The translations under genes were made by a program, and so were the position numbers. A stretch of DNA of 64,000 bases from a virus. Under the pieces are notes generated by a model. That model worked only from the letters and a program-made list of their open reading frames with translations. It had not been told where the DNA came from and made no database searches. Shown in pieces: positions 29,474 to 42,868 of this stretch. The DNA lies in IMG/VR virus record IMGVR_UViG_3300011445_000018, positions 8,896-72,895 of that record; one strand, given 5' to 3'. Position 1 is the first letter of the stretch. Each line of letters begins with the position of its first letter.

Positions 29474-30031
29474 TTATTCCTCAGCGATGGTTTCAATCCG
29501 ACGTGTACTTTCTAACATTTTCTCGGATATGCTTTCAATAACGTTCGGATCATCAATATGGACCGATATAATTTGAACGAATTCCCCGGCTAATTGAATA
29601 ATAGCTCGTTTTGATAGAAGGAGACCCATTCGGCCTTCTAATTTGTCACAACTAACAACCAGCTTTTCTATTTTGATAATCAAGTCTGATATTCGATGAC
29701 TAGCCATTAAAATATCAGTGGCATCTTCACATCTATTAATAGTTTCCTCAACGCACATCCTAAGGATACCTATTTCCTCCCTTAGGCTTTTTATTTGTTC
29801 GCTGTCCGCTAAAGCGTATATGCGTTCCTTGAACCTCCTCAATTGATAGTTACGTTTTATTTCATTTTGAATATGTATTTCACTTTTATTATGACCATGC
29901 ATTGGACAATAATTAGTGCCCTCTGCTTTATTAAACGGGCATTGCCCATTTAGAACCATACCCTCGCAACGTAATATCGGTTCATGGATATTAGGGTCAT
30001 GTCTTTCATATTTATTATCAATAACTATCAT
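29474..30031 (-). CDS. putative terminase small subunit
   Basis: N-terminal C..C..C..H zinc motif, then SLREEIG.LR; directly upstream of terL. Confidence 0.65.
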   Translation of the reverse strand: MIVIDNKYERHDPNIHEPILRCEGMVLNGQCPFNKAEGTNYCPMHGHNKSEIHIQNEIKRNYQLRRFKERIYALADSEQIKSLREEIGILRMCVEETINRCEDATDILMASHRISDLIIKIEKLVVSCDKLEGRMGLLLSKRAIIQLAGEFVQIISVHIDDPNVIESISEKMLESTRRIETIAEE

Positions 30032-30273
30032 CCTGCCTGCTCCATTAGATCATCTAGATCTTCGTCACTTGCTTTAGATAAAGCATCACAAATTTCATCG
30101 GCTTTTTTTAAATGGTCGGGTACACCTTTTTTACGCAAAGCCCTATTTATTTTGAAAAATACCAATGGTCCAGGCCGTCGGAGATTACGTTTGGTATTTT
30201 CACGCCCTTCATTATTAATACATTCCATAATAAAAGGTAAGAACACTGGGATAAGTTCAATTAACCATGACAT
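30028..30273 (-). CDS. small protein with hydrophobic N-terminus
   Basis: MSWLIELIPVFLPFIMEC; coupled on both sides. Confidence 0.5.
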   Translation of the reverse strand: MSWLIELIPVFLPFIMECINNEGRENTKRNLRRPGPLVFFKINRALRKKGVPDHLKKADEICDALSKASDEDLDDLMEQAG

Positions 30274-31022
30274 TATGACGGCTCCATTGTTACAATTACC
30301 ACACAATCATCAGCTTGTTTTTTACTTCCACTCAAAATACCAAAGCCATTTTCACCCCAATCTCTCCAACTATTTCTAATTATTAGGTCGTGACTTACCA
30401 AAACCAATCCCGCCCCTGTTACCTCGTGTCTCCACCAATCATAGCCATCCGCAGTAGGTAGGTCAGCTAGGATGCAACTACCTCGCTCCTCCCATTCCTC
30501 AATGACAAAGAATTCCCTAACAATATTTTTCTTCGCACTTAGCTTATTTGGTTCAGTGAAATAGGAACGTTGAATGGCGTTATCAGGCCAATCACTAGTT
30601 AGATTGATTCCGTCAACCTTTAACCTATTAAGAGCTTGGCTACCCCAACCACCACTGTTGGAGAAGTTCTTAATTGGTGCTCCACAGGACGCCGGACTAT
30701 AGCTTACTACTTGACCTGTTTCTACCAAACGAATTATTTCGCAACAATGCGTTGGAGCGTTCACCCAACAATAGTTTGTGCTCGCTTGATCCTTATGGGG
30801 GAGGCCCATTTCGTTACACAGATCAATTAAGGTGGCTTTATCTTTCTGCTTTTGGCGAATTATGTCATCCCAATCCTTTTCGGGAATGCGTGGGATACCT
30901 AGATCGCCAAAACGTTTACACAATCCCTTTTCCTGGGCATCGCGAAACATACCATAATATCCTCTCCTACCTTGGTCAAGGAAATTTTGGTAGTTATTGT
31001 CATTAATTACGGGCATTGCCAT
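30273..31022 (-). CDS. papain-like (C1) cysteine protease
   Basis: Catalytic set DQ....YCW, H in WWRHEV, and RNSW..WG..GFG. Confidence 0.85.
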   Translation of the reverse strand: MAMPVINDNNYQNFLDQGRRGYYGMFRDAQEKGLCKRFGDLGIPRIPEKDWDDIIRQKQKDKATLIDLCNEMGLPHKDQASTNYCWVNAPTHCCEIIRLVETGQVVSYSPASCGAPIKNFSNSGGWGSQALNRLKVDGINLTSDWPDNAIQRSYFTEPNKLSAKKNIVREFFVIEEWEERGSCILADLPTADGYDWWRHEVTGAGLVLVSHDLIIRNSWRDWGENGFGILSGSKKQADDCVVIVTMEPS

Positions 31023-31042
31023 ATGTATATCCTAACCATAAT

Positions 31043-31795
31043 TTATTGAGTTTTGAACTGCTCCAAAAGAGCTAATGTTTCTTCGATGCTCATTGGCAAA
31101 GGGCCGCTGAAACCTTTCCTTCCATCGCTGATAGCAATCCATGGTAAGGTTACAGCGGTTGGCCTTATTTTGAAATACGCATCGGTTAAAATAGTATTTG
31201 TATTGCGAAACATCTCTTTGGTATAGTCATCATCCCAAATGCGAAAAGCTGGTTGGCCATCTAGCTTACCGCAATTTAGATTACACCACTTCAGAATTTT
31301 GCTAGAGACGAAGATGTTTCTTTGTGGAAGTGGTAGCGTTCCGCTACCACCGGCCTCGCGAAGCATAAGGACGGTTAATACGTTTGTTGGGAAGGGGACA
31401 TCGGTAACGGGTGGATCAATTGGGGGCTTTGGCGGAGTAGGGCCTATTGGCCCTACTATTTTGAATGTTGCATCGACCTTGCGAATTGGACCATCGATAA
31501 CATCAAACGTCTGATCGTTGACTGTTATTTTTCTTAATGGAATAATGATACATTCAATTTTATATGTTCCAGCGTTCCCCCAAATAAATAATTTGTTTCC
31601 AACCGTTTCTGACTCAAGCGTACTTGGTACGCTCCACAGGTTGGTTCCGTTTGGACCATCTGTTAATGTTGCTACTATTTTCTTACCAACAGGCGTTTCA
31701 TTTGGAACTGATATTTCTTCAGAATGTATGTTACTCGTTAAAAATAACAAAAAAAGTACGATTTTAGCACAGTTTTTTGACAAACGTTTTATCAC
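31043..31795 (-). CDS. exported protein: signal peptide, Ig-like domain, Pro linker, thioredoxin-like C-terminus
   Basis: RBS AAGGAG before GTG; IVLFLLFLTS; PTPPKPPIDPP; LPW...GPLP. Confidence 0.55.
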   Translation of the reverse strand: MIKRLSKNCAKIVLFLLFLTSNIHSEEISVPNETPVGKKIVATLTDGPNGTNLWSVPSTLESETVGNKLFIWGNAGTYKIECIIIPLRKITVNDQTFDVIDGPIRKVDATFKIVGPIGPTPPKPPIDPPVTDVPFPTNVLTVLMLREAGGSGTLPLPQRNIFVSSKILKWCNLNCGKLDGQPAFRIWDDDYTKEMFRNTNTILTDAYFKIRPTAVTLPWIAISDGRKGFSGPLPMSIEETLALLEQFKTQ

Positions 31796-31891
31796 TTTTT
31801 CTCCTTTGTTAATAAGAGGGTCCATACTAGTATACGCAGTTTTCATTGAAAAATTAACTAAAAAATTTTTGTCAAAAAAGTGTGCTAAAAT
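31761..31891. repeat. inverted pair of 24-bp TTTGTCAAAAAAGTGTGCTAAAAT sites
   Basis: Copies at 31761-31784 (reverse, 1 mismatch) and 31868-31891. Confidence 0.85.
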
Positions 31892-32113
31892 CTGAAAAAT
31901 TTTAAAATTTTTCAGTTAGAAATATGTTTCATGACATCTTGCTAAATTTATCATAGACCAGGAACGCTCGTACGCTCGGACCATGAATTATGATACGTGA
32001 ACGCTCGGGCCATAAAATTTCCATATTTCTCGCACAGAATAGGGGGTCCAGCGTTCAGTGAACAGATGTCACTTGGTCGACGGTTGTACACCCCTCCCCT
32101 GGGTAGTGGTGAT

Positions 32114-32433
32114 TAGTTACTAGGCAGCAACTGCCTAGTAACTAGGCACAGGCAACCGATGCTAATTTAACAGGCAGCCTAGTAACTAGGCAACGATTGC
32201 CTATGCTACCACACTAGACAAACCATGCTACATTAACAGGCATGGCATGCAGTGCCCCACGATGGGCCGTGTTGCGTGATACGCTGAACCATGTGCATTG
32301 GACGTGATACGTGGTAACACGCAACACGGGTCACGCTAGGTACTCTACAACCTATTTCGCCCGTGTTGCATGATCGATGGTCAAGCCATACTGGCATACG
32401 TCGCAATCGATCATGCAACACGGGTCACGCTAG
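32114..32433. repeat. palindrome and repeat cluster
   Basis: TAGTTACTAGGCAG-caa-CTGCCTAGTAACTA at 32114-32144; 19-bp inverted repeat 32360-32378/32406-32424; 19-bp direct repeat at 32321 and 32415. Confidence 0.9.
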
Positions 32434-32451
32434 AAGCCTTCCTGAGGCAAC

Positions 32452-32514
32452 ATGAACGATGAACGATGAACGATGAACGATGAACGATGAACGATGAACG
32501 ATGAACGATGAACG
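32452..32514 (+). repeat. (ATGAACG)9 tandem repeat
   Basis: Nine perfect heptamers plus a degenerate tenth. Confidence 0.98.
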
Positions 32515-32704
32515 ATCAACCTGATCAATTATAGTACAGCACTTAAATCTATACGCTGTAACATGTTACATCGACTATGAAACCAAAGCGATCAAGGTGG
32601 TCAAATGTAGTACAAGGGGTATTTATACCCCCTAAACCCACTATATGTGACGTAAACCAAAACGGACTCAGTGTTTGCGACAGGGGTAAAAATAAAATCG
32701 CAAA

Positions 32705-32720
32705 CGGCATGCCTCTTGCT
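32705..32720 (+). promoter_or_regulatory. sigma54-type (-24/-12) promoter
   Basis: CGGCATG-CCTC-TTGCT has exact GG-N10-GC spacing; structured RNA begins near the predicted +1 (~32731). Confidence 0.55.
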
Positions 32721-32734
32721 ACTACTACCATTTC

Positions 32735-32838
32735 GGCTGACTGACCCGACCTTGACTCAGTCGCGTGACGCCCATAGCGTGCACGCGGGGACCGAAAACA
32801 TTTTGTTTTTGGTCGTCAGGATTCACGGGTCGGCGGTC
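32735..32838 (+). ncRNA. structured leader RNA (multi-helix junction)
   Basis: Helices CTGACCCG/CGGGTCGG, CCTTGAC/GTCAGG, CGCGTG/CACGCG and GACCGAAAACA/TGTTTTTGGTC. Confidence 0.55.
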
Positions 32839-33152
32839 AATAAGACATAGAAAGGGACAAACGAACATGCGGGGCTGAGCCAGCCTTAGGCCGATGACAA
32901 AGTGAATCACTAATAACGACCCATGGTAACATGGGGCGGGCGGTTTCAATCCGCAAACTTTCAATCGCTATACGGCTATGCATCATGCGATGCTAAGTGG
33001 AATCGTAAGATAGTCAATCGATTCGTTAGCGGGCGAATTATAGAAACGTTGGGAACACGGTTTGCCACAAGCAATTGTCGTGAAGTGCAAACTATCTATC
33101 AACGTCTGAACGATAGGTTAGTGTGGACCTAGTTGCCCCATAAGGGGACACT

Positions 33153-33470
33153 ATGAACACACAGACCATTATCCAACTTAACAAACTACCTTCGTTGCAA
33201 TCTCTTGACAAGCCAGCACTGGCCATGACAGGGGAGCAAACACGGCAACGGAGTTACCTGGAATCAGTCGCGGATTTGGATGCTACAATTAACAGCATCG
33301 AACGTCGCGTCAAAAGCGAAAAGGTAGCATACGAAAAGGCTACCAATCAACCTTGGAAAACGAGCGATGGCAAATCGCATTTCACGTGCGAACAAGCCAT
33401 CGACCATGCTTACGCGAACAAGTGCAAGTGGGTAAAGTGCACCGGAATCGGTATGATTTGGCACAGTTAA
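33153..33470 (+). CDS. hypothetical early protein
   Basis: RBS AAGGGG; enclosed by a 28-bp stem. Confidence 0.75.
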   Translation: MNTQTIIQLNKLPSLQSLDKPALAMTGEQTRQRSYLESVADLDATINSIERRVKSEKVAYEKATNQPWKTSDGKSHFTCEQAIDHAYANKCKWVKCTGIGMIWHS

Positions 33471-33507
33471 CACTTTTCGGGGCAACTAGGCCCATACTAA
33501 CCTATCA

Positions 33508-33563
33508 GGGGATGGTTGCTTTGGCTGTTTTAGCCTGTTAAAATGTCCAAGGGAGCCATCCCC
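33508..33563 (+). ncRNA. hairpin carrying the antisense of the repeated motif
   Basis: GGGGATGGTTGCTTTGG pairs with CCAAGGGAGCCATCCCC. Confidence 0.6.
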
Positions 33564-33580
33564 ACAAACAAGGAAACCAC

Positions 33581-33787
33581 ATGAACGGTAAATGGTATAA
33601 AGGTAACAATGCATACTACTTTGTGGACAATGAAAATTATGCCTATCGTGTTTGGGAAAATGGTAACGTTATGGGAATGTCCGAATACGACGCCACTAAT
33701 CTAATACGCGGATTGTGCACTGAGATACCTTGTCCGGCATTCGGTGCAAGTGCTTTGAAAGATTTACAACGTCTATTGGAGCAATGA
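33581..33787 (+). CDS. hypothetical protein
   Basis: RBS AAGGA. Confidence 0.75.
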   Translation: MNGKWYKGNNAYYFVDNENYAYRVWENGNVMGMSEYDATNLIRGLCTEIPCPAFGASALKDLQRLLEQ

Positions 33788-33837
33788 TGACAATCGCAAT
33801 CCTCCTCGTGCTTCTAGTCTTGTTACTTCTAGTCTGA
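33787..33837 (+). CDS. 16-aa hydrophobic micropeptide MTIAILLVLLVLLLLV
   Basis: TGATG overlap with the upstream stop; GGAG upstream. Confidence 0.5.
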   Translation: MTIAILLVLLVLLLLV

Positions 33838-33874
33838 TTTTCGGGGCTTTTGATAAAGCCCCATAGCAACCATC

Positions 33875-34086
33875 CCTAATACACGAGTATTGGCTTTGAG
33901 TAACAATCGGGGCTTGCCACGATTTGTTAACTCTAGCTGATTCAAAGCACACGAACTAATCCAATTAGGTCAATTGATATTGTTAACAACCCTTGCGGCT
34001 TAAAGTGCTATTGAATGGTACGGAAGGACGCAACGTTGCCAACGCGATATGGCTTAGCGTAACGAAGCCAATACTCGTTTGTTAGG
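33875..34086 (+). ncRNA. structured ncRNA cassette A
   Basis: 23-bp closing stem, internal helices, no ORF, motif on both sides. Confidence 0.65.
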
Positions 34087-34118
34087 ATCAACCATCCCCA
34101 ATTACAGGAGCTATTACA

Positions 34119-34418
34119 ATGCTCAAGTTTGTTGACATCGGTCGCAAAGGCTATTTGGTAATTGCCGAAATTAGCCCAGATGACAAGTTATGTCGATCCA
34201 TTGGCTTTCTGGACTTAACATCGCCGATCAGACCAATGGCGACCGTTGCCGCCGACTATGTCATGGACACAGTCAATTTGTTAAATGAACGAATTGCCAG
34301 ATTGCCGCCGTTCATACAACAAGCCATTGTGCCAATCGTTCGCCCGATCACCGATCCACAATTCGTGCAAGAATGGCACTACATCGAAACCAGCGAGCCA
34401 TTGTCCTTGTTAAATTGA
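34119..34418 (+). CDS. hypothetical protein
   Basis: Motif followed by RBS AGGAG. Confidence 0.75.
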   Translation: MLKFVDIGRKGYLVIAEISPDDKLCRSIGFLDLTSPIRPMATVAADYVMDTVNLLNERIARLPPFIQQAIVPIVRPITDPQFVQEWHYIETSEPLSLLN

Positions 34419-34485
34419 ACAAATGCCCGGTCAGCCAGGGGCAATACTGGTTGAAAGCAACCATCCCTAACAGAAAGGACAAATA

Positions 34486-34743
34486 ATGAAAGAGTACGTT
34501 GTGCGTGTTGTTATTCCCGATATTGACAATGACATATTGGGATTGGCAAAACCAATCGATGGAGCATTTCTTGAATGTCTACGCTATGCTGGTATTGTTA
34601 AAATTCACACTTCTGATACTGGCCAAGTATTTGATATTCGTTGCCCAGACGTTGTTAAAATGTCCAAAAATTGGGCAAATGCCAATGCCGACCGCATGAA
34701 AAGCTTTGGCTACAATGCCGTCGCCGCACCAGCCTATGAATGA
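34486..34743 (+). CDS. hypothetical protein
   Basis: Motif followed by TAACAGAAAGGA RBS. Confidence 0.8.
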   Translation: MKEYVVRVVIPDIDNDILGLAKPIDGAFLECLRYAGIVKIHTSDTGQVFDIRCPDVVKMSKNWANANADRMKSFGYNAVAAPAYE

Positions 34744-34810
34744 TTCCCTCCCCGGTATTGTGGGAATTAACAATGCCGGAAGCAACCATCCCTAACAGAA
34801 AGGACGAACA

Positions 34811-35035
34811 GTGGACAAAAGTATTCTTGAAGGTAAGTTGTCCGAAATTCGCAGAATTCGTACAGACAGCAAACAAATGTGGCATCTGTTCGCACGATAC
34901 AAGGATTTGGCCAATTTCACATGTACACGCGAGCCACTTGAAGTTTTCGCGGAAGCTAAAATTAACAAATTGGCCGCCGAATTAACTACTTCGGATTTGT
35001 GTACACTTGTTGAACTACTGACACGTGCAAAGTAA
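34811..35035 (+). CDS. hypothetical protein
   Basis: Motif followed by TAACAGAAAGGA RBS; GTG start. Confidence 0.75.
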   Translation: MDKSILEGKLSEIRRIRTDSKQMWHLFARYKDLANFTCTREPLEVFAEAKINKLAAELTTSDLCTLVELLTRAK

Positions 35036-35103
35036 ATGACCCTTTAACTGGTTGTTAGGATTAACAACCAGAAAGCAACCATCCCTAACAGAAAGGTCAA
35101 ACA

Positions 35104-35307
35104 ATGGTAGTATACTACAAAATAGAATACACCATAACTAATGGTGATTCCGACAAGGAACATCTCTGTCGTAAAATCGTGGGGATACAAACAAGAAAGC
35201 AACATGAATTATTCAAACTAATTCATGAAATGCTTGAAGAAGAACACGATTGTTTTGAAAAAATCACCAATGTTTACATGGAACCGATTACAATTCATTT
35301 GTTATAA
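35104..35307 (+). CDS. hypothetical protein
   Basis: Motif followed by TAACAGAAAGGT RBS. Confidence 0.75.
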   Translation: MVVYYKIEYTITNGDSDKEHLCRKIVGIQTRKQHELFKLIHEMLEEEHDCFEKITNVYMEPITIHLL

Positions 35308-35400
35308 CCTTTAACTGGTTGTTAGGATTAACAACCAGAAAGCAACCATCCCCAAAGCAAGCCCATCGTAATGCCTCCTTGTTAAAAGGGAGAATTTACC

Positions 35401-36816
35401 ATGAGTTCAGTTGACGAATCTGGAAGCGTGCAACGTCTGAATGTCGAAACAAAGCATGTGGTTTTTCACCCGGACTTCCTAGTCCCCGCGATCAATCCAC
35501 GTGATTTGTCCGACTTGCAAGGCGAAACACTGTACCCCGCGATCGAAGCAACAGGGGGTAAGATCACGACGGCCTTGGTGGTCTGGAAACCGGTCAATGA
35601 TCAAGGGGAATTCGACCCCGATCATCCGATCTGGACCAGTGGGAACATTCACGATACCTTGACAGGTAAAGTGTTAGTTATACCACACGGCGAGCGACAC
35701 AAGTATCGCATACTCGTCCAAGGGCACCGTCGGCATTGGTGTGCAAGAAAAGCACTGTCACAACCTGATGTTTGCCCGGCTGAGATGATAAAGAATCTCA
35801 CCAAATTGCCGTGCAATGAAATCACTTGTACTCAGGAAGTGGCCGAGCGTCTTGCTCTGGATTTCGAGACATCGGAACCAATGCACAATTGGAATGTCAT
35901 CAAGCTGATTTTCGGCTTCATGATGAAGGACATCAAGTACACCGAGATCGCTTTGTTGATGCCGCGAATGCTGTTCCGTGCTTTGCTCAACGACGGTGAA
36001 GCTAAATATAACAAGCTTCTCCGCGAGGCAAAGTCCGGTCGCGATCGCGTTGCTGCCATCAAATCGGCTCTCAAGAACCGGCTTGACCAGCATACCTACT
36101 CCTGTTACCTCTTTGGCCCAGCAATGCAGAAGCAATTGCTTTTGTATTGGCGATACGTGAAAAACGAATTGCAGGACATCGGAGATCGCTATCTGCTCGT
36201 CATGGACATGAAGTACGAATTGGTGCAAAAGCTGCGAACTTTGTACAACGAAGAAGTGAAAGTTCACGGTTGGGCACCAATTACACGAGTGGAAATCGTT
36301 GATGCCAAACCCAACGATTCGCAGAATGTTTCGTACGCTCAGACGCCGGGCAATACCAGTGTCCAAGGACGCTGGTTTGTCATCGAGGGCGGATCAGAGA
36401 ATTTTCGGCAAGCTATGCTGAAAAATATGCTGGTCTATGCCAAGCCAGAAGCGGCAGAGGAAGAGAAAAAGCCACCTACTCAACAAGAGCGGAAGGCAAT
36501 TATCAATTCCACTGCCAGTGGCATCGGCAAAGCCTTCTCCAAGTTCTATGATGAAAGTTTCACGGAAGAAACATCAGGCAAATACTTGGATGCTCCACGC
36601 CTACGCGTCCAATGGGAAGAATGGGCGTTGTTTTCTGAATCGACTCAGAAAGCAATGCTCGATTTCGCCGACCAATGCGATCCATTGGTTAAGGAATTGT
36701 TGGTTGCTGCCACAAGCCAAGCGGCTCCGGGGGCAGCGGCAGAACGTGTCAAGACCGCGATTGCCACGTTGAACGAAGCGTTAAAGCCAGTTACAGTTGT
36801 GTCGAAGAAGAAGTAA
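35401..36816 (+). CDS. divergent ParB/Srx-domain protein
   Basis: NPR...L...I...G.I...LVV and Y.ILVQGHRR ParB-like motifs; RBS GGGAG. Confidence 0.6.
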   Translation: MSSVDESGSVQRLNVETKHVVFHPDFLVPAINPRDLSDLQGETLYPAIEATGGKITTALVVWKPVNDQGEFDPDHPIWTSGNIHDTLTGKVLVIPHGERHKYRILVQGHRRHWCARKALSQPDVCPAEMIKNLTKLPCNEITCTQEVAERLALDFETSEPMHNWNVIKLIFGFMMKDIKYTEIALLMPRMLFRALLNDGEAKYNKLLREAKSGRDRVAAIKSALKNRLDQHTYSCYLFGPAMQKQLLLYWRYVKNELQDIGDRYLLVMDMKYELVQKLRTLYNEEVKVHGWAPITRVEIVDAKPNDSQNVSYAQTPGNTSVQGRWFVIEGGSENFRQAMLKNMLVYAKPEAAEEEKKPPTQQERKAIINSTASGIGKAFSKFYDESFTEETSGKYLDAPRLRVQWEEWALFSESTQKAMLDFADQCDPLVKELLVAATSQAAPGAAAERVKTAIATLNEALKPVTVVSKKK

Positions 36817-36905
36817 CATTCGGCATTGTGTCGGGTGTTTGTTTAACAAACGTCTTTCGCAAGGGGGCGTTACAATGGGCTTGCTAACTCTAACAAGGAA
36901 AACGT

Positions 36906-37121
36906 ATGTCACCACGTTACTATCGTTTATGTGTCAAACGAAATGGCTACTGGCATGAAGTGGCACGAATCGGTAAATCATTAGCCGTTTCAAGAGACAA
37001 TGCCATATTGTTACTTGGCAGTTGGAACGAATTAGACGCAATTTTCGGCATGGGGAATTGGTCTGTTACTACTGACCTTTCCCTCGACTTTGTTACTTGT
37101 GTAACATCTGACATCAATTAA
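36906..37121 (+). CDS. hypothetical protein
   Basis: RBS AAGGA. Confidence 0.7.
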   Translation: MSPRYYRLCVKRNGYWHEVARIGKSLAVSRDNAILLLGSWNELDAIFGMGNWSVTTDLSLDFVTCVTSDIN

Positions 37122-37139
37122 CAAAAAGCAACCATCCAC

Positions 37140-37236
37140 TAAACATTATAGAGTTGAGTTGCCAGTGCTTATATATAAAATGCGATTCGCGTTTATCGCA
37201 TATTAAGTTACTGGCAACTCTACTGTGTGATGTTTG
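37140..37236 (+). ncRNA. long hairpin ncRNA cassette B
   Basis: GAGTTGCCAGT/ACTGGCAACTC, AAACATTATA/TGTGATGTTT and TGCGAT/ATCGCA; lies between two motif copies. Confidence 0.65.
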
Positions 37237-37250
37237 AAAGCAACCATCCT

Positions 37251-37405
37251 AAATGTCACAAAGCTGGGCTGTCAGCTAATGCTGGCCGCACTGCATGATA
37301 ATGTGTAGCAAGGCATTCTGATGCCATTCAGATTGCTATGTGGTTTCGACAGCCATAACAGTGTCGCATGTCTAAAGGCCCTGACAGCCTAGCTTTGTTA
37401 CATTT
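37251..37405 (+). ncRNA. structured ncRNA cassette C
   Basis: 25-bp closing stem AAATGTCACAAAGCTGGGCTGTCAG/CTGACAGCCTAGCTTTGTTACATTT with inner hairpins. Confidence 0.65.
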
Positions 37406-37433
37406 AACCATCCCCAAAAACAAGGAAACAGTC

Positions 37434-37613
37434 ATGCAAGTCGAAGGCACAATTCGATACAAAGACACGTATCGAGATCTTATCAAAGCCTTAATGGGAC
37501 ATGAAGATGTTCTGGATAGGCCCATCATCGTGCAAATTGAATTGCCAGGAGGCATAAATTTCATTCTAGATGATGAAGATAACAAAGAGCGTAGAATATT
37601 AACGTTTGAATAA
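37434..37613 (+). CDS. hypothetical protein (start MQVEG)
   Basis: Motif followed by RBS AAGGA. Confidence 0.7.
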   Translation: MQVEGTIRYKDTYRDLIKALMGHEDVLDRPIIVQIELPGGINFILDDEDNKERRILTFE

Positions 37614-37692
37614 TTTCGCTGGACCTTTGTTAAAAGGTCCAGAAGCAACCATCCCTAAATATGTGGTACTGGGCCATTAGAAAGAATTAACA

Positions 37693-37944
37693 ATGTTTCA
37701 CTTCGACATTACATGTGAAGATGTTCGCCTAATCGCGAACGAAGTAAGCCCAACAAGTGTAAGAGTGACGTTGTACGACAATCTCAGTGGCAAAAGTCAC
37801 TTGCTACAGTCTGTTAGTTTCTGTGATTTTGAAAAAATGGTCAGTGGTATGATTTGTTGCCACGGTGACGTACCAGCGGAAAGTTACCCAGCTTTAGAAG
37901 AAATTCTGAAAGGTTGCCCGAACGAGTGTCGGCCCATTCCTTAG
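37693..37944 (+). CDS. hypothetical protein
   Basis: Enclosed by a 25-bp stem. Confidence 0.7.
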   Translation: MFHFDITCEDVRLIANEVSPTSVRVTLYDNLSGKSHLLQSVSFCDFEKMVSGMICCHGDVPAESYPALEEILKGCPNECRPIP

Positions 37945-38018
37945 CGTCTAGCGTTCGCTGGTCCAAAACAATGGCCCAGTACCGTGTATTTAGGTGCAAT
38001 CATCCCAGGAGACAAATT

Positions 38019-38231
38019 ATGACAACACTGTACCTCGTTGTTAAATATAACGAGGCAAATGTAGCTCGTTATATTGGGTACGTCTTGTTAAATGGTGCAG
38101 CGTGCAAAGTCATGGAAGCATCAATTATGGAAGATGTTAATGCCTACATGAAAATGCATGGCTACACTGAATTCAAATGGCGTGTACCCAAGCAACAATT
38201 GTATCAAATGATCCGTGTAAAGGAGTGGTAA
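38019..38231 (+). CDS. hypothetical protein (start MTTLY)
   Basis: Motif followed by RBS AGGAG. Confidence 0.7.
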   Translation: MTTLYLVVKYNEANVARYIGYVLLNGAACKVMEASIMEDVNAYMKMHGYTEFKWRVPKQQLYQMIRVKEW

Positions 38232-38256
38232 TGATTCTTGACTATAAAGGATCAAT

Positions 38257-38529
38257 GTGATGCTATATTTCGCCCTCTATGAACAATTAAAGGAGATTGT
38301 TCAATCGGAAGTGTTTGAGATCACTTTTGTTAAAAAAGATGGATCAACAAGAGTGATGAAATGTACCCTGACAGACCACCAGGAAACATTACTAAATGGA
38401 CTGTGCCCTGTTTGGGACATCGAGAACAATGGGCACCGCAGCGTTAATCTTAACAAAGTGGTGCAAATGATCTTTAACGACAAAGCCTACACCATAAAGG
38501 ATGAAAAATGGCAGTGTGTTTCACTTTAA
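38257..38529 (+). CDS. WYL_2 / Sm-like SH3 beta-barrel protein (DUF2693-like)
   Basis: ITF.KKDGSTR.M.CTL ... VWD.E..G.RS. Confidence 0.8.
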   Translation: MMLYFALYEQLKEIVQSEVFEITFVKKDGSTRVMKCTLTDHQETLLNGLCPVWDIENNGHRSVNLNKVVQMIFNDKAYTIKDEKWQCVSL

Positions 38530-38576
38530 CATTGTTAGCTTTGTTACTTCTTCTTAGCCTTCTGCTAAAAATATAA
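38508..38576 (+). CDS. 22-aa hydrophobic micropeptide MAVCFTLTLLALLLLLSLLLKI
   Basis: AAGGA 6 nt upstream; single transmembrane-length segment. Confidence 0.5.
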   Translation: MAVCFTLTLLALLLLLSLLLKI

Positions 38577-38629
38577 CGCTGGTCCAGCGTTCATGTATCA
38601 AGGAGACAATAGTCTTTGTTAAATGTATC

Positions 38630-38672
38630 AAAATGGCCGATAATCCGTACATGGATTATCGGCCATTTTTTT
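38630..38672 (+). terminator. intrinsic terminator between convergent operons (probably bidirectional)
   Basis: AAAATGGCCGATAATCC-gtacat-GGATTATCGGCCATTTTTTT. Confidence 0.9.
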
Positions 38673-38745
38673 GTTACCTTTAACATTTCCTTACTTTGTT
38701 AATTTTAACAAAATGCATGATACCTGGCTTTGTTAATTTTAACAA
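38671..38745. promoter_or_regulatory. repeated palindromes TTGTTAA-TT-TTAACAA
   Basis: Copies at 38695-38712 and 38730-38745, with a degenerate copy at 38671. Confidence 0.6.
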
Positions 38746-38747
38746 TT

Positions 38748-38915
38748 CTATTGGTTCTTTTCTAAAACCTCAATACGGCTAATCAGGTTAGTTATCTTGC
38801 ATCCTTCTGCAGCTGCAATCATAGATAACACCATAATGAATATTACTCCTACACACCCCCAATCTTCGCCAATGGTGATTTGGATTTCGTGTTTATGTTT
38901 TATTTCGTCTGCCAT
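38748..38915 (-). CDS. small membrane protein
   Basis: Transmembrane segment WGCVGVIFIMVLSMIAAA. Confidence 0.5.
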   Translation of the reverse strand: MADEIKHKHEIQITIGEDWGCVGVIFIMVLSMIAAAEGCKITNLISRIEVLEKNQ

Positions 38916-38916
38916 T

Positions 38917-39120
38917 TTAAGTCCGTTCTGTGAAACGCCTACGCCTCTTATTACAATGCTTACATTGTACCCCACGAATCTTCTCTAAAGATTTATCCAC
39001 CATTACACTTTTACCTCCGCAAATAGTGCACTCCACATTGTAATAAATACGTGAACCAAGGGAGTATGCAATGCTCTTAATTATCTTATTGCCGCGAACA
39101 TCATTCAGTTTGAATTTCAT
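38917..39120 (-). CDS. zinc-ribbon protein
   Basis: CTICG...CKHC. Confidence 0.55.
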   Translation of the reverse strand: MKFKLNDVRGNKIIKSIAYSLGSRIYYNVECTICGGKSVMVDKSLEKIRGVQCKHCNKRRRRFTERT

Positions 39121-39179
39121 CTCATACCTACAAATTTTTAAAATTTTACATGGTCCAAATGGCATGTTTCAAAGTAACA

Positions 39180-39659
39180 ATTTAGCACACTTTTTTGTCA
39201 ATCATTTTGCACTTTTTTGCACACTTTTTTGACAAAAATTTAAACGCCATTAGCGGCTCGCCTGACGGTGCTCGCCGAAGGCGTGTCGACAGTCGCAGGG
39301 CCGCTCGTTCGCCTACCTGTGTCAATGCGCGGAGCGTTCCCGGTCATCCTACGCGGTACGCCGGTCACCTACGTGGGAACTGACTGGCACGACCTTGGCT
39401 CCTATTCTTCCCCCTACTATCTTACATACTCTCTTTTTTTTCGATGGTCTAAGGATATAGAGAGAGTAGAGTCAGTCAGTAAGGAAACGTAAACGCGCAT
39501 GGCGTAAGGACTTACGTCGATTGGGCATAATTGCCTATCTTACCCATCCCTATCCATATTGCCTATCGTTCACATTTAGCCAAATGGGCACCGTAAAAAA
39601 GTTTGTCAAAAAAGTGTGCTAGAAAGTGAAAATTGCTTGTCAAAAAAGTGTGCTAAAAT
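39180..39659. other. candidate replication origin or control locus bracketed by inverted TGTCAAAAAAGTGTGCTA repeats
   Basis: Reverse copies at 39180 and 39215, forward copies at 39602 and 39637; non-coding core. Confidence 0.45.
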
Positions 39660-39683
39660 GGTGCTTAAACACGTAAGGTAAAT

Positions 39684-40001
39684 CTATGTAGTCAATTTGA
39701 CTACAGTCTTTGGGCTAAATGACATAATTCCGAGCAAAGCACCCTTTTCATAAGTCATTTTCTGCCCGAAATTGATAATCCTAACAAAAGGTAGGTGTAC
39801 AGCGTAACAAAAAACATCTCCTGTACACTGTAAATGCACCAAAAAACCTAAAATATTGAACGCACTTTCCAAATTAAAGCCCAAATCCATGGTATAAATG
39901 CCTCCCATGTCTATCACAAATGGCTCGTTGACAAAAATCTGTAACGTAGTGCTATCCAGTTGCTTAGGTAGGTAACGTGTTGATACATTTATCAGCTTCA
40001 T
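39684..40001 (-). CDS. degenerate dUTPase-fold-like protein
   Basis: Spacing of P....S, I..G, D.G and N.G.....KG......F.P; catalytic motifs absent. Confidence 0.35.
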   Translation of the reverse strand: MKLINVSTRYLPKQLDSTTLQIFVNEPFVIDMGGIYTMDLGFNLESAFNILGFLVHLQCTGDVFCYAVHLPFVRIINFGQKMTYEKGALLGIMSFSPKTVVKLTT

Positions 40002-40239
40002 CTATTAGTTCCTGTAACTTTTTATGAATGGCATTACGTGCCAAGTCAGCTATTCTAGCCATTTGTCGCTCGTTCGAGCGTTCATGGTCCAGCGTTCGCT
40101 CGTTCGAGCGTTCATGTTCCAGCGTTCGAGCGTTCACAAAATATTCCTCCAGCCAATCTAAAATATGGTCCGCTTCATCAATATTGTTGCACGCTAAATG
40201 CACTATACTGCCACATCTCGATATTGTTGGTTGTATCAT
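39964..40239 (-). CDS. hypothetical protein containing a DNA-motif repeat
   Basis: RTL(E/D)HERSNE twice. Confidence 0.55.
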   Translation of the reverse strand: MIQPTISRCGSIVHLACNNIDEADHILDWLEEYFVNARTLEHERSNERTLDHERSNERQMARIADLARNAIHKKLQELIDEADKCINTLPT

Positions 40240-40460
40240 AACAAACGTACAGTTGTCCGACTGTTTTGAATGACAAAATGCTCGAAATACCCCTCTTTCG
40301 GGGGGTAATTAGCGATATGCGACGTTTCAAGTACGCGTAAAATGGCATCAACATCAGTTAATGGAAGAAAAGTGACCCCATAATCCAATGTTAGATCGTC
40401 ATTTTCCCTACAAAAGAGTATTTTATTACTCCTCACGCAACGAAACATTGCCTGTCGCAT
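40236..40460 (-). CDS. hypothetical protein
   Basis: Coupled ORF. Confidence 0.5.
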   Translation of the reverse strand: MRQAMFRCVRSNKILFCRENDDLTLDYGVTFLPLTDVDAILRVLETSHIANYPPKEGYFEHFVIQNSRTTVRLL

Positions 40461-40722
40461 AGTCTTTCACCCGCTCAAGGTATTTATCCTTCCTTAAATT
40501 CGACAAACAGCGTAAAATCTCATCCTCAGGCATACGTATTGACGTCCGATGACGTATAATTGCACAGAATTCCATACATTCCGTAGGATGGAAGAGGAAT
40601 TGCTCTACCGTAGTGTGTTTCGGCTCGTAATCTCTCCACCATAAGCGTGCTACCTCGAAGAAAAAATCCTCAGTTTCCTTTTTCCAACCGTAAATTGCTA
40701 ATCGATCACTGATTTTCATCAT
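40426..40722 (-). CDS. hypothetical protein
   Basis: Coupled ORF ending in L.NLRK. Confidence 0.6.
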   Translation of the reverse strand: MMKISDRLAIYGWKKETEDFFFEVARLWWRDYEPKHTTVEQFLFHPTECMEFCAIIRHRTSIRMPEDEILRCLSNLRKDKYLERVKDYATGNVSLREE

Positions 40723-40792
40723 TGTTCGTTGGTCCCTCGTTCATTGTTAATGTTTTAGCGTTCGCTGGCCCGAGCGTTCACGGAACGCTATT

Positions 40793-41635
40793 CTAGCGTT
40801 CAGCGTTCATGAAATTAGGTTCAGATTGTACAATTTTCATGGCTTCAATCAAACATTTGTTAATTTTAGTACCCTGAAACAAAGATTTTAAACGATTCTC
40901 CTCCGTTCGACCGTAATCGAAATTATAATAACTATTTATTGCATTGTAAGCTCCCCATAATGTGTCCTCTGTGTAATATACCTTTATTTTCTCAATAACG
41001 CTGGTACGAGCGTTCCCTAAACAAGCTTTCCAGTATTCAATGGCCAATGATAATGTCATTTCATGATATGTAAGTGGCCACATACTAGCAATCTCACGAT
41101 CAATATACTTAAATTGCGAAACAACATCATCTACAAATCGACCGACTTTTTCCTCAGCGTTCAAAGTATGGCGAAATTTGCTCATGTATTTACCAATAGT
41201 TGGTAACATATTTGAACAAGTAAGCCTGTAAGGTAAAATGCCAGCTTGAATTGATGTATGTCCATTGTGACCATTCATAAGTAAGAGGTAACATTGAATA
41301 GCGTCCCCTCGTACATTGTACATTTGATCCACTAATTTTAACATACACCAAACACGAGCACCATTGTCCAATGTACCAATACTATCCAATCGACCAATAT
41401 TTCGTGTAACAATTTCCGAGCTAATCAAAGCTAGTATTTCGTTTTGTAGTGGCTTGAATTTCTTCCGACACATTCCTAAGACAGCTCGGTTGTCAGTACG
41501 CAGAATATAGTAATATCCCTTGGCCGCTATTCCGTTTATTAAGAACCCTTGTTCCACGTCAACGATGAAATTAGCTCCTGCTTCCTTGAAAGCTGTTCCA
41601 ACGTTCAAACAATCACTAACATCTATTCCTATCAT
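40793..41635 (-). CDS. DUF932/DUF945-family protein
   Basis: RTD...VLG......LQN, G.L..G.RVW, YLLL.NGH.G, R..C.N.L, RHT, TLWGAYNA. Confidence 0.85.
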   Translation of the reverse strand: MIGIDVSDCLNVGTAFKEAGANFIVDVEQGFLINGIAAKGYYYILRTDNRAVLGMCRKKFKPLQNEILALISSEIVTRNIGRLDSIGTLDNGARVWCMLKLVDQMYNVRGDAIQCYLLLMNGHNGHTSIQAGILPYRLTCSNMLPTIGKYMSKFRHTLNAEEKVGRFVDDVVSQFKYIDREIASMWPLTYHEMTLSLAIEYWKACLGNARTSVIEKIKVYYTEDTLWGAYNAINSYYNFDYGRTEENRLKSLFQGTKINKCLIEAMKIVQSEPNFMNAER

Positions 41636-41637
41636 AA

Positions 41638-41937
41638 TTAATTACTCTTTATTCTCATTGGTACTAATATTTCGCCGGTACAAGGTAATAATGTCCCACA
41701 CGTAGGACACCAATACATGCTATCAGTTGATATTTTACAATCCATTTTTGTCAAAACACATGAACATGTAGGACACGCTCGTTCCATACCCACTGTTTCA
41801 GCGTTCGAGCGTTCAGCGTTCGCTGTTCCAGCATTTTCTATTAAACAAGTAGTGCTACAAATAAAATCTCCTGGGTAAACAAAAGTTTTAAGATCTTTAA
41901 CATGTCCACAAATTCGACATTGAGCTATATATTTAAT
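41638..41937 (-). CDS. multi-CxxC zinc-finger protein, probably starting at ATT
   Basis: 99-codon frame KYIAQCRICG...CSTTC...CPTC...WCPTCG; AAGGA upstream of ATT. Confidence 0.45.
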   Translation of the reverse strand: MKYIAQCRICGHVKDLKTFVYPGDFICSTTCLIENAGTANAERSNAETVGMERACPTCSCVLTKMDCKISTDSMYWCPTCGTLLPCTGEILVPMRIKSN

Positions 41938-42868
41938 GGAACATATCCTTTAGCCAACTTTCGCCATTAGTATATGCCGCGTATTGAGTGTCCAAAATAC
42001 CACATCTAGCGATCGATTCCTCAAGCGTTCGCTCACGAAAGAAATGAAATGGTTCGCTAAAAATAATATCCCACAAAGCTTTGTAACATTCCAATGTTTT
42101 AATTTGAAAGGTGGGATTAATTTGACATCGATGTTCCGCAACCCTAATATTACCATGTGAACAGCAAAGCTGATCGACCGCTACAATAAAGAACGATCCA
42201 ACGGGTGCTCCACAAAGCCAGGCGTAAGTTGTTAATTGTTGCGACCATGCTGCATCAATGTCATCAAAGAACTCCGCAATATTCAAACGTACGCCATTAA
42301 TACGACTTATTTGTGCCTTAGAGTGTGGACCATCTTGATTGTTCCCTGGTCCACGTACCCGTATATAACCACGTTTTGGCGATACGGGGTAATTTGAACA
42401 ATATCCGTTTACTTTGAAATCGAGTATTATTGGTACGTTGTTACGATCAACATACCAAACGTCTGGTTTCCCAAGTAATTTCACACCCTCAACCGTCCCT
42501 TCAACAGTGAACTCAAATCGCGGTGTAGCAGTCGCTGCCATCAATTCCACCAGCAGGTCCGCTAATGCTCCGCACGATTTATATGCTTCAAAGCAAACCA
42601 ACCCAGCCTTGCGAGCGAAATCGCGATTACAAGCTTCCACTTGTGTCTCGAAAATTGATGCCAACTCGAATTGTGGGTCTAACCTACCCATTACCCGCTC
42701 AAATAAATAACTTTTCACGTATGCATCGAACGCTGAACCCACCGACATCGGTTCAGTTTGAGGCTCCCTGGGTGGGCTGTTATCAGCTAGATAATGTAGA
42801 TAATAATCCTCCTCCCCGTATTGATATTTCGCAAGAGCGGACGGACTTATAAATCTTGGATATCGCAT
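41933..42868 (-). CDS. PD-(D/E)xK exonuclease (RecB/Cas4-like)
   Basis: SPSAL, GSAFD, GKPD...ILDFK, QL..Y. Confidence 0.8.
   Translation of the reverse strand: MRYPRFISPSALAKYQYGEEDYYLHYLADNSPPREPQTEPMSVGSAFDAYVKSYLFERVMGRLDPQFELASIFETQVEACNRDFARKAGLVCFEAYKSCGALADLLVELMAATATPRFEFTVEGTVEGVKLLGKPDVWYVDRNNVPIILDFKVNGYCSNYPVSPKRGYIRVRGPGNNQDGPHSKAQISRINGVRLNIAEFFDDIDAAWSQQLTTYAWLCGAPVGSFFIVAVDQLCCSHGNIRVAEHRCQINPTFQIKTLECYKALWDIIFSEPFHFFRERTLEESIARCGILDTQYAAYTNGESWLKDMFH

What the first reader, a model, noticed from the sequence alone, without database searches (positions are those of the whole stretch)
33112..37994. Whole genes clamped inside 25-28 bp long-range RNA helices
Seen: 33112-33139 pairs with 33479-33506 around ORF 33153..33470 (28 bp). 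35356-35381 pairs with 36860-36885 around the 1.4-kb ORF 35401..36816 (26 bp). 37654-37678 pairs with 37970-37994 around ORF 37693..37944 (25 bp). Each clamp has a different sequence. Across these three and the clamps of ncRNA cassettes A and C, I count 9 G-U pairs and 4 true mismatches on the + strand, which points to selection on the transcript rather than on duplex DNA. Known: RNase III cuts helices of this size, as in rRNA processing stalks; T7 early mRNA uses local hairpins instead. Inference: each cargo is excised as a separate end-paired, stabilised and possibly circularised RNA.
Basis: partly seen in the sequence, partly recalled or inferred. Interest (0 to 1): 0.85.

Follow-up and report, generated by a model that had tools for sequence, protein, structure and literature searches.

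The report
RNA stems enclosing phage genes
In one operon of an uncultured freshwater phage and of three distant relatives, single genes lie between two complementary sequences that most likely pair in the messenger RNA, much as ribosomal RNAs are looped out for cutting.

Summary
The three ORFs at 33153-33470, 35401-36816 and 37693-37944 are each enclosed by a private inverted repeat of 28, 31 and 25 nt. Their flank-pairing energies are the three best of 95 ORFs in the window. Repeats of this kind are about 100-fold rarer in shuffles.

New here: phages G006, G005 and G008, which share only 46-50% terminase identity with this one, carry the same layout beside their packaging genes, with unrelated arm sequences and mostly unrelated cargo.

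Transition-type non-Watson-Crick positions read as G-U on the sense strand 27 times and on the antisense strand 4 times (p about 2e-5). Selection therefore acts on the transcript.

The island looks like one operon, from a promoter-like site near 31.87 kb to a terminator at 38.63 kb. No recombinase gene, target-site duplication or second copy of any arm was found.

Cutting by host RNase III is the most likely mechanism, by analogy with rRNA leader-trailer helices, T7 early mRNA and long-range RNase III sites in B. subtilis. It is inferred, not shown. Nothing supports circularisation.

Earlier notes of this scan report the same layout in at least 47 other genomes. My five searches that bore on this layout listed no paper describing it for phage mRNAs.

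The parts
31869..31891 (+). Promoter-like element (TTGTCA ... TGnTAAAAT, extended -10 type) facing the island. It is one copy of a repeated element that also stands on the - strand at 31740-31790 and in both orientations at 39172-39666.
   Evidence: Sequence read; repeats. Its function as a promoter is inferred.
33112..33139 (+). 5' arm of clamp 1
   Evidence: pairs with 33479-33506 (26 WC + 1 G-U + 1 A-C of 28); present in MFE and centroid folds.
33153..33470 (+). Cargo ORF, 105 aa, no known family
   Evidence: No Pfam or PHROG hit; no tblastn hit in GenBank phages.
33479..33506 (+). 3' arm of clamp 1
33508..33519 (+). Reverse-complement copy of the junction motif. It can pair locally with 33554-33563 or with the motif at 33866-33877, giving a 12-bp weak clamp around ORF 33581-33787.
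   Evidence: The pairing choice was not resolved.
33866..33876 (+). Junction motif copy (core GCAACCATCCC), preceded by an 8-bp hairpin and followed by the 5' arm of cassette A
33875..33896 (+). 5' arm of the closing stem of non-coding cassette A (pairs with 34065-34086)
   Evidence: 20 WC + 1 G-U + 1 mismatch of 22.
34065..34086 (+). 3' arm of cassette A
34088..34098 (+). Junction motif copy (1 mismatch), before ORF 34119-34418
34457..34467 (+). Junction motif copy, before ORF 34486-34743
34782..34792 (+). Junction motif copy, before ORF 34811-35035
35075..35085 (+). Junction motif copy, before ORF 35104-35307. It is part of a 45-nt exact direct repeat, 35041-35085 = 35308-35352.
35342..35352 (+). 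Junction motif copy, 3 nt before the 5' arm of clamp 2
35356..35386 (+). 5' arm of clamp 2
   Evidence: pairs with 36855-36885 (26 WC + 3 G-U + 2 mismatches of 31); in the MFE of the 1561-nt fold, mean pair probability 0.92.
35401..36816 (+). Cargo ORF, 471 aa, ParB/Noc/KorB-like fold; not a transposase
   Evidence: 35 representatives at E<=0.001. AF2 mean pLDDT 87; top Foldseek hits are ParB, Noc and KorB, E 8e-5 to 2e-3. No Pfam hit.
36855..36885 (+). 3' arm of clamp 2
37128..37138 (+). Junction motif copy (1 mismatch), before cassette B
37141..37235 (+). Non-coding cassette B: 26-nt arms 37141-37166 / 37210-37235
   Evidence: 22 WC + 2 G-U + 2 mismatches. Sense duplex is 9.3 kcal/mol more stable than antisense.
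37240..37250 (+). Junction motif copy (1 mismatch), before cassette C
37250..37406 (+). Non-coding cassette C: closing stem 37250-37275 / 37381-37406
   Evidence: 24 WC + 1 G-U + 1 mismatch of 26.
37645..37655 (+). Junction motif copy; its last bases overlap the 5' arm of clamp 3; preceded by a 10-bp hairpin
37654..37678 (+). 5' arm of clamp 3
   Evidence: pairs with 37970-37994 (22 WC + 3 G-U of 25); in MFE and centroid folds.
37693..37944 (+). Cargo ORF, 83 aa, no known family
37970..37994 (+). 3' arm of clamp 3, followed 1 nt later by the next motif copy
37996..38006 (+). Junction motif copy (1 mismatch), before ORF 38020-38231
38630..38678 (+). Intrinsic-terminator-like hairpin (18 pairs, then a T run) closing the + strand island. 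It is the only strong one on this strand between 31.5 and 39.8 kb.

Best explanation
The + strand island (about 31.9-38.7 kb) is one polycistronic operon transcribed away from the packaging genes. Within its transcript, the sequences just before and just after certain cargoes pair into 22-31 bp leader-trailer helices. The cargoes are three ORFs, a fourth enclosed weakly, and three non-coding units. Each helix has its own sequence.

Shown here: the helices exist, they are far beyond chance, they sit exactly outside the ORF and its ribosome-binding site, they are selected on the sense RNA, and the layout is kept in distant relatives while arm sequences and cargo change.

Inferred: a near-perfect RNA duplex of more than two helical turns is a substrate of host RNase III. 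Its staggered double cut would release each cargo as a separate RNA whose 5' and 3' ends stay paired. That would shield the RNA from 5'-end-dependent endonucleases and 3' exonucleases. It would also insulate the folding and translation of each cassette from its neighbours. This is what happens to 16S and 23S rRNA and, with local hairpins, to T7 early mRNAs.

The 16-nt junction motif (AAGCAACCATCCCYAA) lies single-stranded between the 3' strand of one helix and the next 5' arm or ribosome-binding site. It marks cassette borders in this phage only, and its role is open.
For: (1) Reality and significance of the helices. Folds.

(2) RNA-level selection. G-U on the sense strand versus G-U on the antisense strand (A-C on the sense strand) is 12 v 2 in the window (7 helices), 14 v 2 in G006 (6 helices) and 1 v 0 in G005. 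Pooled this is 27 of 31, one-sided binomial p 1.7e-5. Sense arm duplexes are more stable in 11 of 14 helices, mean -4.1 kcal/mol, Wilcoxon p 0.0018.

(3) Conservation of the layout without conservation of sequence.
- G006 has four gene-enclosing clamps and two nested helices on the strand opposite its terminase, between a near-consensus sigma-70 promoter and an 18-bp terminator.
- G005 has a 31-nt clamp around a 373-aa ORF that is a probable distant homologue of the window's 471-aa ParB-like cargo (hhalign probability 65%, E 6e-5, with the GHRR motif aligned).
- G008 has a 32-nt clamp around a 68-76 aa ORF.
- In about 429 kb of these phages scanned with one filter, every repeat pair with a loop over 130 nt lies in this region beside the packaging genes. 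Two of them are promoter-repeat pairs, not clamps.

(4) One transcription unit: a promoter-like element at 31869-91, no strong internal terminator, and a strong terminator at 38630.

(5) Precedent. B. subtilis RNase III cuts mRNA duplexes of 10-36 bp whose strands lie up to 505 nt apart (PMC11780869, section 24 read). rRNA leader-trailer helices are described in PMC10250234 (abstract read). T7 R sites are recalled, not read here.
Against: - No RNA evidence of any kind exists: no ends, no cuts, no proof that the island is transcribed as one unit or early.
- The host is unknown, so the presence of RNase III in it is assumed. The Pfam family rang in 8 of 14 control genomes.
- Only 3 or 4 of about 13 island ORFs are clamped, so clamping is not needed for expression in general.
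- The 5' arms end only 13-14 nt before the start codons, so an intact helix could hinder initiation.
- Pairing across 1.5 kb of translated RNA may need a chaperone that I did not find. No E. coli-type boxA stands before the helices.
- G005 and G008 helices show no strand asymmetry: 1 v 0 and 0 v 0 G-U, with energies +1.5 and +1.0 kcal/mol in favour of the antisense strand.
- Strand-biased mutation could add to the G-U excess.
- No position-by-position covariation could be measured, because no close relative of any single clamp could be fetched.
Confidence: 0.55

Rival explanations
1. The helices form in the RNA but are not cut by RNase III. They act as clamps in one of three ways. (a) After cleavage elsewhere, for example in the single-stranded junction motif by RNase E, RNase Y or a phage factor, they leave each cassette with base-paired, nuclease-resistant ends. 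(b) They insulate cassettes from misfolding with neighbours or from Rho. (c) They bring the stop codon next to the start codon so that ribosomes re-initiate on the same cistron.
For: In 10 of 11 + strand copies the motif follows a helix 3' strand within 0-4 nt. It is followed by a 5' arm or a ribosome-binding site, which is the classic place for an endonuclease site between protective structures. Unclamped cassettes have a local hairpin plus the motif instead. Arms stand close to the start and stop codons.
Against: G006, G005 and G008 have clamps but no such motif; in G006 two clamps abut with a 1-nt linker. Near-perfect duplexes of 25-31 bp are expected to be RNase III substrates wherever the enzyme exists (established enzymology; PMC11780869). 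No candidate sequence-specific nuclease was identified.
Confidence: 0.25
2. The repeats act on DNA. They would be terminal inverted repeats of tiny mobile cassettes (as in mycobacteriophage MPME elements or MITEs) or crossover sites for inversion or excision of the enclosed gene.
For: The geometry fits: 25-31 bp inverted repeats flank single ORFs, giving units of 341, 395 and 1530 bp. The 45-nt exact direct repeat around ORF 35104-35307 shows that junctions recombine or duplicate.
Against: - Mismatches are strand-asymmetric (27 v 4), which a duplex-DNA site does not predict.
- Each arm pair is unique, with no second copy in the window or in 1.37 Mb of loci and no target-site duplication.
- The largest cargo has a ParB-like fold, not a transposase fold.
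- No tyrosine or serine recombinase family member is in the 72.9-kb record, which is estimated 80% complete.
- Different sequences at every pair rule out one site-specific enzyme.
Confidence: 0.05
3. After excision the end-paired cargo RNAs are ligated into circles.
For: Only the geometry: the two ends are held together by the residual helix.
Against: RNase III leaves a 2-nt staggered end, not a nick (recalled). No RNA_ligase family member is in the record. RtcB-type ligation needs 2',3'-cyclic phosphate and 5'-OH ends, which RNase III does not make (recalled). A circular mRNA is no known strategy of bacterial translation.
Confidence: 0.03

Closest known systems
Leader-trailer (processing-stalk) helices flanking 16S and 23S rRNA in bacterial rrn operons, cut by RNase III
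   Same: Long-range pairing joins sequences just before and just after a cargo of 0.2-1.5 kb within a polycistronic transcript. Helices are more than 20 bp, and several stand in series in one operon. Non-coding cargoes are interspersed (cassettes A-C), as tRNAs are in rrn spacers.
   Different: The cargo here is mostly protein-coding and must be translated. No E. coli-type boxA stands before the helices (consensus recalled). A different 16-nt motif stands there instead. Cutting is not shown.
RNase III sites (R0.3-R1.3) between the early genes of phage T7
   Same: A phage operon transcribed by the host polymerase is cut into single-gene messages, and the leftover stems stabilise the mRNAs. The operon sits next to one end of the late or packaging block.
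   Different: T7 sites are local hairpins between genes. Here the two strands of each helix lie on either side of a whole gene, so both ends of one mRNA would stay paired to each other.
Long-range intramolecular RNase III targets in Bacillus subtilis mRNAs (PMC11780869)
   Same: mRNA duplexes of 10-36 bp have strands up to 505 nt apart and paired cuts with 2-bp stagger. U-G wobbles are tolerated.
   Different: Those are scattered host sites inside or across mRNAs. They are not a serial one-gene-one-helix layout. The largest loop here is 1468 nt.
Start-associated sequences (SAS/ESAS) of Cluster K mycobacteriophages (PMC3203893)
   Same: A conserved asymmetric 13-16 nt motif in one orientation stands just upstream of the start codons of a subset of non-structural genes. 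It is sometimes joined to inverted repeats, and its function is unknown.
   Different: ESAS inverted repeats are local (17 bp, 4-13 bp spacer) and share a consensus. The SAS includes the Shine-Dalgarno sequence. Here the arms are private to each gene and span it. This comparison concerns the junction motif, not the clamps.
Base pairing between 5' and 3' UTR of icaR mRNA in Staphylococcus aureus, with RNase III cleavage (PMC3868564; title and start of abstract seen only)
   Same: The two ends of one bacterial mRNA pair, and RNase III is involved.
   Different: That is a single host gene, where the pairing masks the ribosome-binding site and represses. Here the ribosome-binding site lies inside the loop, free of the helix.

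Membership tests
rRNA-type leader-trailer processing helices (RNase III stalks) | Complementary sequences flanking the cargo form a long (>20 bp) helix in the precursor | tested here: met
rRNA-type leader-trailer processing helices (RNase III stalks) | Pairing maintained by selection on the RNA (G-U tolerated on the sense strand, compensatory change) | tested here: met
   Sense versus antisense G-U is 27 v 4. The layout is kept with unrelated arms in G005, G006 and G008. Column-by-column covariation was not testable, as no close relatives could be fetched.
rRNA-type leader-trailer processing helices (RNase III stalks) | Staggered double cut by RNase III inside the helix | not testable with these tools
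   No RNA data available.
rRNA-type leader-trailer processing helices (RNase III stalks) | boxB-boxA-boxC antitermination signals upstream of the 5' arm | tested here: not met
   The E. coli-type boxA (recalled consensus) gives 14 matches at <=2 mismatches against 8.1 expected, and none stands before a helix. A hairpin plus a different conserved motif stands there. The host's own boxA is unknown.
T7-type intercistronic RNase III sites | Local hairpin between two genes of a host-transcribed early operon | tested here: not met
   The helices span whole genes, with loops of 291-1468 nt. Local 8-10 bp hairpins do exist before the motif copies but are too short for RNase III.
Mobile elements with terminal inverted repeats (IS, MITE, MPME) | Transposase cargo or multiple dispersed copies, with target-site duplication | tested here: not met
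   ParB-like fold of the 471-aa cargo; arms unique and no duplication at the flanks.
Invertible or excisable DNA segments (Hin/Gin/Cin type, integron cassettes) | Recombinase gene, and sites that share a consensus recognised by it | tested here: not met
   No Phage_integrase or Resolvase match in the record (the record is estimated 80% complete). Every arm pair has a different sequence.
Known RNA families (Rfam) | Match to a curated covariance model | tested here: not met
   Nothing relevant at E<=1 in 30000-42000. Nothing at gathering score in L140. No tRNA or tmRNA.

The most novel reading that the evidence does not exclude
The clamps are the visible part of a dedicated cassette-expression system of phage early operons. 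Each gene or small RNA would travel between phages together with its own leader-trailer helix. In this phage, a factor that reads the 16-nt junction motif would hold the 5' arm at the polymerase until the 3' arm is made, as the rrn antitermination complex does from boxA. The cargo would then be excised as a pan-handle RNA with a double-stranded cap on both ends, out of reach of host 5'-end-dependent decay and perhaps of RNA-targeting defences.
Probability: 0.2. Interest if true: 0.8.

Novelty: new variant of a known kind. Interest (0 to 1): 0.65.

Why it matters
If the helices are cut as proposed, phage early messages are built on the plan of rRNA operons: one long transcript, with each product looped out and released with paired ends. 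That would add a general, sequence-independent rule for finding early or accessory gene cassettes and small RNAs in uncultured phages. It would explain how short-lived operons give stable single-gene messages. It would also offer portable stabilising and insulating parts for synthetic operons.

The layout is kept across phages that share only about half of their terminase residues. Unchecked notes of this scan report it in many unrelated phages. None of the five literature searches bearing on this layout listed a description of it for phage mRNAs.

Tried and rejected
**Close relatives for covariation**
- The 471-aa cargo has two homologues at 58% and 56% identity (P0002, P0003).
- Scans with alignments A1 and A3 were all empty: viral contigs, metagenome contigs and genome contigs.
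- The 311-aa right-flank gene gave nothing. The G006 500-aa cargo found only itself.
- The island DNA has no blastn match in GenBank phages, and the three cargo proteins have no tblastn match there.
- The terminase has no cultured relative above 30% identity.

**The closest relatives, G001-G004 (64-69% terminase identity)**
- They carry none of the island ORFs.
- Their contigs stop 3.3-4.4 kb upstream of the terminase. In G002 and G003 they stop at a tandem repeat. Whether these phages have an island is therefore unknown.

**The junction motif elsewhere**
- A 24-nt version has no exact match in IMG/VR. A 15-nt version has only single, chance-level hits; 80 rows were shown of 100 stretches.

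**Sequencing runs**
- No RNA holder is listed.
- Four DNA runs kept as contigs (X4, X18, X21, X23) were laid at 80% likeness. The pieces listed are identical to the window. No joints and no other letters were reported. Loose ends cluster at the tandem repeat 32451-32515.
- This gives no variation to test covariation with. Because the runs are contigs, it is only weak evidence about DNA rearrangement.

**Family searches in the record**
- Phage-encoded RNase III and RNA ligase: no match.
- T7-like RNA polymerase: no match, but that family also rang in none of the controls, so the answer is uninformative.
- The 895-aa ORF outside the window is a primase-helicase, not a polymerase for the motif.

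**Other checks that led nowhere**
- G006's 500-aa cargo is not detectably related to the ParB-like family and has no usable Atlas hit.
- The flank duplex energies do not separate the strands well, because 70-nt flanks allow extra pairs. The arm-only comparison does.
- Literature searches for gene-spanning helices in phage mRNA gave no description of the layout. One search concerned only the junction motif (SAS/ESAS).
- Supplementary tables of PMC11780869 (site lists) are closed and were not seen.

Full report
**What the window is.** The window is bases 8896-72895 of a 72.9-kb IMG/VR virus record, classed linear and estimated 80% complete. It is a tailed phage. It encodes a tape-measure protein, a gpA-type large terminase, beta-helix fibre proteins, a family-A DNA polymerase and an SNF2 helicase. 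The rest of the record encodes a ParB and a primase-helicase. Nearly all genes lie on the - strand. The exception is a + strand island at about 32.9-38.6 kb, whose G+C is 0.45-0.47 against about 0.39 elsewhere. The island starts 3.7 kb upstream of the terminase gene and points away from it.

The three inverted-repeat pairs are at the stated places:
- 33112-33139 / 33479-33506: 28 nt, made of 26 WC, 1 G-U and 1 A-C.
- 35356-35386 / 36855-36885: 31 nt, made of 26 WC, 3 G-U and 2 mismatches.
- 37654-37678 / 37970-37994: 25 nt, made of 22 WC and 3 G-U.

The arms never overlap the enclosed ORFs. The 5' arm ends 13-14 nt before the ATG, and the Shine-Dalgarno sequence lies in that gap. The 3' arm begins 8-38 nt after the stop codon.

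The helices are beyond chance on three tests:
- Among 95 non-overlapping ORFs of the window, the three clamped ORFs have the three strongest 5'-flank/3'-flank duplexes: -63.6, -51.1 and -42.2 kcal/mol. The next is -34.7 and the median -21.8.
- A strict filter (10-nt exact seed, at least 22 nt, at least 84% WC, loop 60-2600 nt) finds 7 pairs, all within 31.7-39.7 kb. The mean in 30 dinucleotide shuffles is 0.07. The filter misses clamp 3 and cassettes B and C, because G-U runs interrupt the seed or the extension.
- RNA folds of whole cassettes keep the long-range helices in both the MFE and the centroid. The 1.5-kb clamp has a mean pair probability of 0.92.

**Anatomy of the island.**
- A repeated promoter-like element with an extended -10 faces the island at 31869-31891. 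A copy faces the other way at 31740-31790.
- About 1.2 kb of repeat-rich, ORF-poor leader follows.
- Then come about 13 ORFs and three non-coding units.
- A strong terminator-like hairpin at 38630-38669 plus a T run closes the island. It is the only strong one on that strand. I therefore read the island as one operon, which is an inference.
- A 16-nt motif, core GCAACCATCCC, occurs 10 times on the + strand of the island at up to 1 mismatch. There are two looser copies, one reverse-complement copy inside the island, and one + strand copy elsewhere in the window. Shuffles give 0.68.
- In 10 of 11 + strand copies the motif follows the 3' strand of a helix within 0-4 nt. That helix is either a clamp arm or a local 8-10 bp hairpin. 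The motif is followed by a 5' arm or by a ribosome-binding site. It is thus a single-stranded linker at every cassette border.
- Cassettes A (33875-34086), B (37141-37235) and C (37250-37406) have closing stems of 22-26 nt and no ORF. They match no Rfam family and no tRNA.

**RNA or DNA?** A transition in one arm gives G-U on one strand and A-C on the other. Selection on duplex DNA predicts equal numbers of each.
- In the seven helices of the window, G-U falls on the + strand 12 times and on the - strand twice.
- Arm-only duplex energies favour the sense strand in 5 of 6 window helices.
- Each arm is unique, and there is no target-site duplication.
- The largest cargo has a ParB/Noc/KorB-like fold and is not a transposase.
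- The record holds no integrase or resolvase family member.

**Relatives.** No close relative of the island could be fetched. Terminase-based relatives could.
- The nearest four, G001-G004 at 64-69% identity, are syntenic in both arms. Their contigs break in the leader of the equivalent region. In G002 and G003 the break is at a tandem repeat. They are therefore silent on the question.
- G006 (50% identity). On the strand opposite its terminase it has a near-consensus sigma-70 promoter and an 18-bp terminator 7.5 kb downstream. Between them, in L140 coordinates, lie four clamps:
  - 17349-75 / 18178-204, 27 nt, around a 124-aa ORF and two nested helices;
  - 15550-80 / 17317-47, 31 nt, around a roughly 500-aa ORF;
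  - 14323-63 / 14827-67, 41 nt, around a 146-aa ORF;
  - 13449-73 / 13614-38, 25 nt, around a 39-aa ORF.
  
  Two of these clamps abut with a 1-nt linker. G006 lacks the window's junction motif.
- G005 (50% identity). It has one 31-nt clamp around a 373-aa ORF on the same relative strand. That ORF is a probable distant homologue of the window's ParB-like cargo. The evidence is hhalign probability 65%, E 6e-5 over 246 columns with the GHRR motif aligned, and weak phmmer and hmmsearch scores of 20-23 bits.
- G008 (46% identity, direct terminal repeats). It has a 32-nt clamp around a 68-76 aa ORF, 2.4 kb upstream of its terminase.
- In G006 the G-U count is 14 on the sense strand and 2 on the antisense strand. 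In G005 it is 1 v 0 and in G008 0 v 0.
- Pooled over all helices the count is 27 of 31, p 1.7e-5. Sense duplexes are more stable in 11 of 14 helices, Wilcoxon p 0.0018.
- None of the window's island ORFs has a tblastn match at 1e-5 in these relatives. The layout therefore persists while arms and most cargo differ.

**Mechanism.** What is shown is a conserved helix, selected on the sense RNA, around single cargoes of one operon. The step to RNase III is inference from enzymology. Near-perfect duplexes of more than two turns are RNase III substrates. In B. subtilis the enzyme cuts mRNA duplexes of 10-36 bp whose strands lie up to 505 nt apart, with a 2-bp stagger (PMC11780869, section 24 read). 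The closest analogue in form is the leader-trailer helix of rrn operons (PMC10250234, abstract read). The closest in biological setting is the RNase III processing of T7 early mRNA, which I recall but did not read here.

A double cut would free each cargo with its two ends still paired. This should slow attack from the 5' end and from the 3' end.

Several points count against the reading or remain open:
- There are no RNA data.
- The host is unknown.
- Only a minority of island ORFs are clamped.
- The helix base stands close to the ribosome-binding site.
- No E. coli-type boxA stands before the arms.

An uncut-clamp model is the main rival, with cleavage at the junction motif or a role in insulation or ribosome recycling. 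A DNA-level role is unlikely. Nothing supports circles (and the end chemistry recalled).

**Novelty.** Four literature searches aimed at this layout found no paper describing gene-spanning helices in phage mRNAs. A fifth found only the SAS/ESAS motifs of Cluster K mycobacteriophages, which bear on the junction motif.

The scan's own notebook holds 52 notes from at least 47 other genomes that match my query words, and the eight shown describe this layout. They are unchecked AI notes and not evidence, but they mean that the scan has seen this before on other DNA.

I class the finding as a new variant of a known kind: RNase III-type leader-trailer helices applied to phage protein-coding cassettes. 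This window adds four things:
- a four-phage clade with the layout;
- a strand-asymmetry test with p about 2e-5;
- a probable case of the same (ParB-like) gene held in unrelated clamps in two phages;
- a phage-specific junction motif.

Noticed in passing
window 33866-38006 (12 copies), 33508-33519 (reverse complement), 46820-46830: A 16-nt junction motif (AAGCAACCATCCCYAA) stands at nearly every cassette border of the island. It always lies single-stranded between a helix 3' strand and the next 5' arm or ribosome-binding site. It is absent as a multi-copy element from IMG/VR and from the clamp-bearing relatives. Its role is unknown; candidates are a cleavage site, a protein-binding site or a boxA-like signal.
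   Followed up: partly
window 35041-35085 and 35308-35352: An exact 45-nt direct repeat (hairpin plus motif) brackets ORF 35104-35307. Three consecutive genes share the same motif-plus-ribosome-binding-site module. This suggests duplication or recombination at cassette junctions.
   Followed up: partly
window 32440-32515: A tandem 7-nt repeat lies in the island leader. Metagenome contigs laid on the window break here (loose ends at 32451-32515). The contigs of relatives G002 and G003 end in a different tandem repeat at the equivalent place.
   Followed up: partly
window 31740-31912 and 39172-39666: A repeated roughly 23-nt promoter-like element (TTGTCA, then an extended -10) occurs in divergent pairs. 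At 39172-39666, two 75-nt inverted copies flank a G+C-rich 345-nt segment with no clear ORF. Their mismatches show no G-U excess, as expected for DNA sites. G002 and G003 carry a near-identical element.
   Followed up: no
window 32100-32430: The leader holds two similar long hairpins, each followed by the same 10-nt tail, and several copies of a 'cctagtaactaggca'-like palindrome. It could be an origin, a packaging site or a regulatory RNA.
   Followed up: no
window 37625-38736: The 9-mer CTTTGTTAA occurs 10 times in the window against 1.24 expected, with 5 copies in this 1.1-kb stretch around the end of the island.
   Followed up: no
window 35401-36816; L133 12000-13121 (-): The clamped 471-aa protein belongs to an unannotated family with 35 representatives at E<=0.001. 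It has no Pfam hit, but its predicted fold is ParB/Noc/KorB-like and it has an invariant GHRR motif. The record also encodes a canonical ParB outside the window.
   Followed up: partly
L140 15080-15110 (- strand; = L117 about 1000-1040): A T-arm-like hairpin (GGTTCAATTCC loop) lies in a non-coding stretch of the G006 island. ARAGORN and Rfam find no tRNA there.
   Followed up: partly
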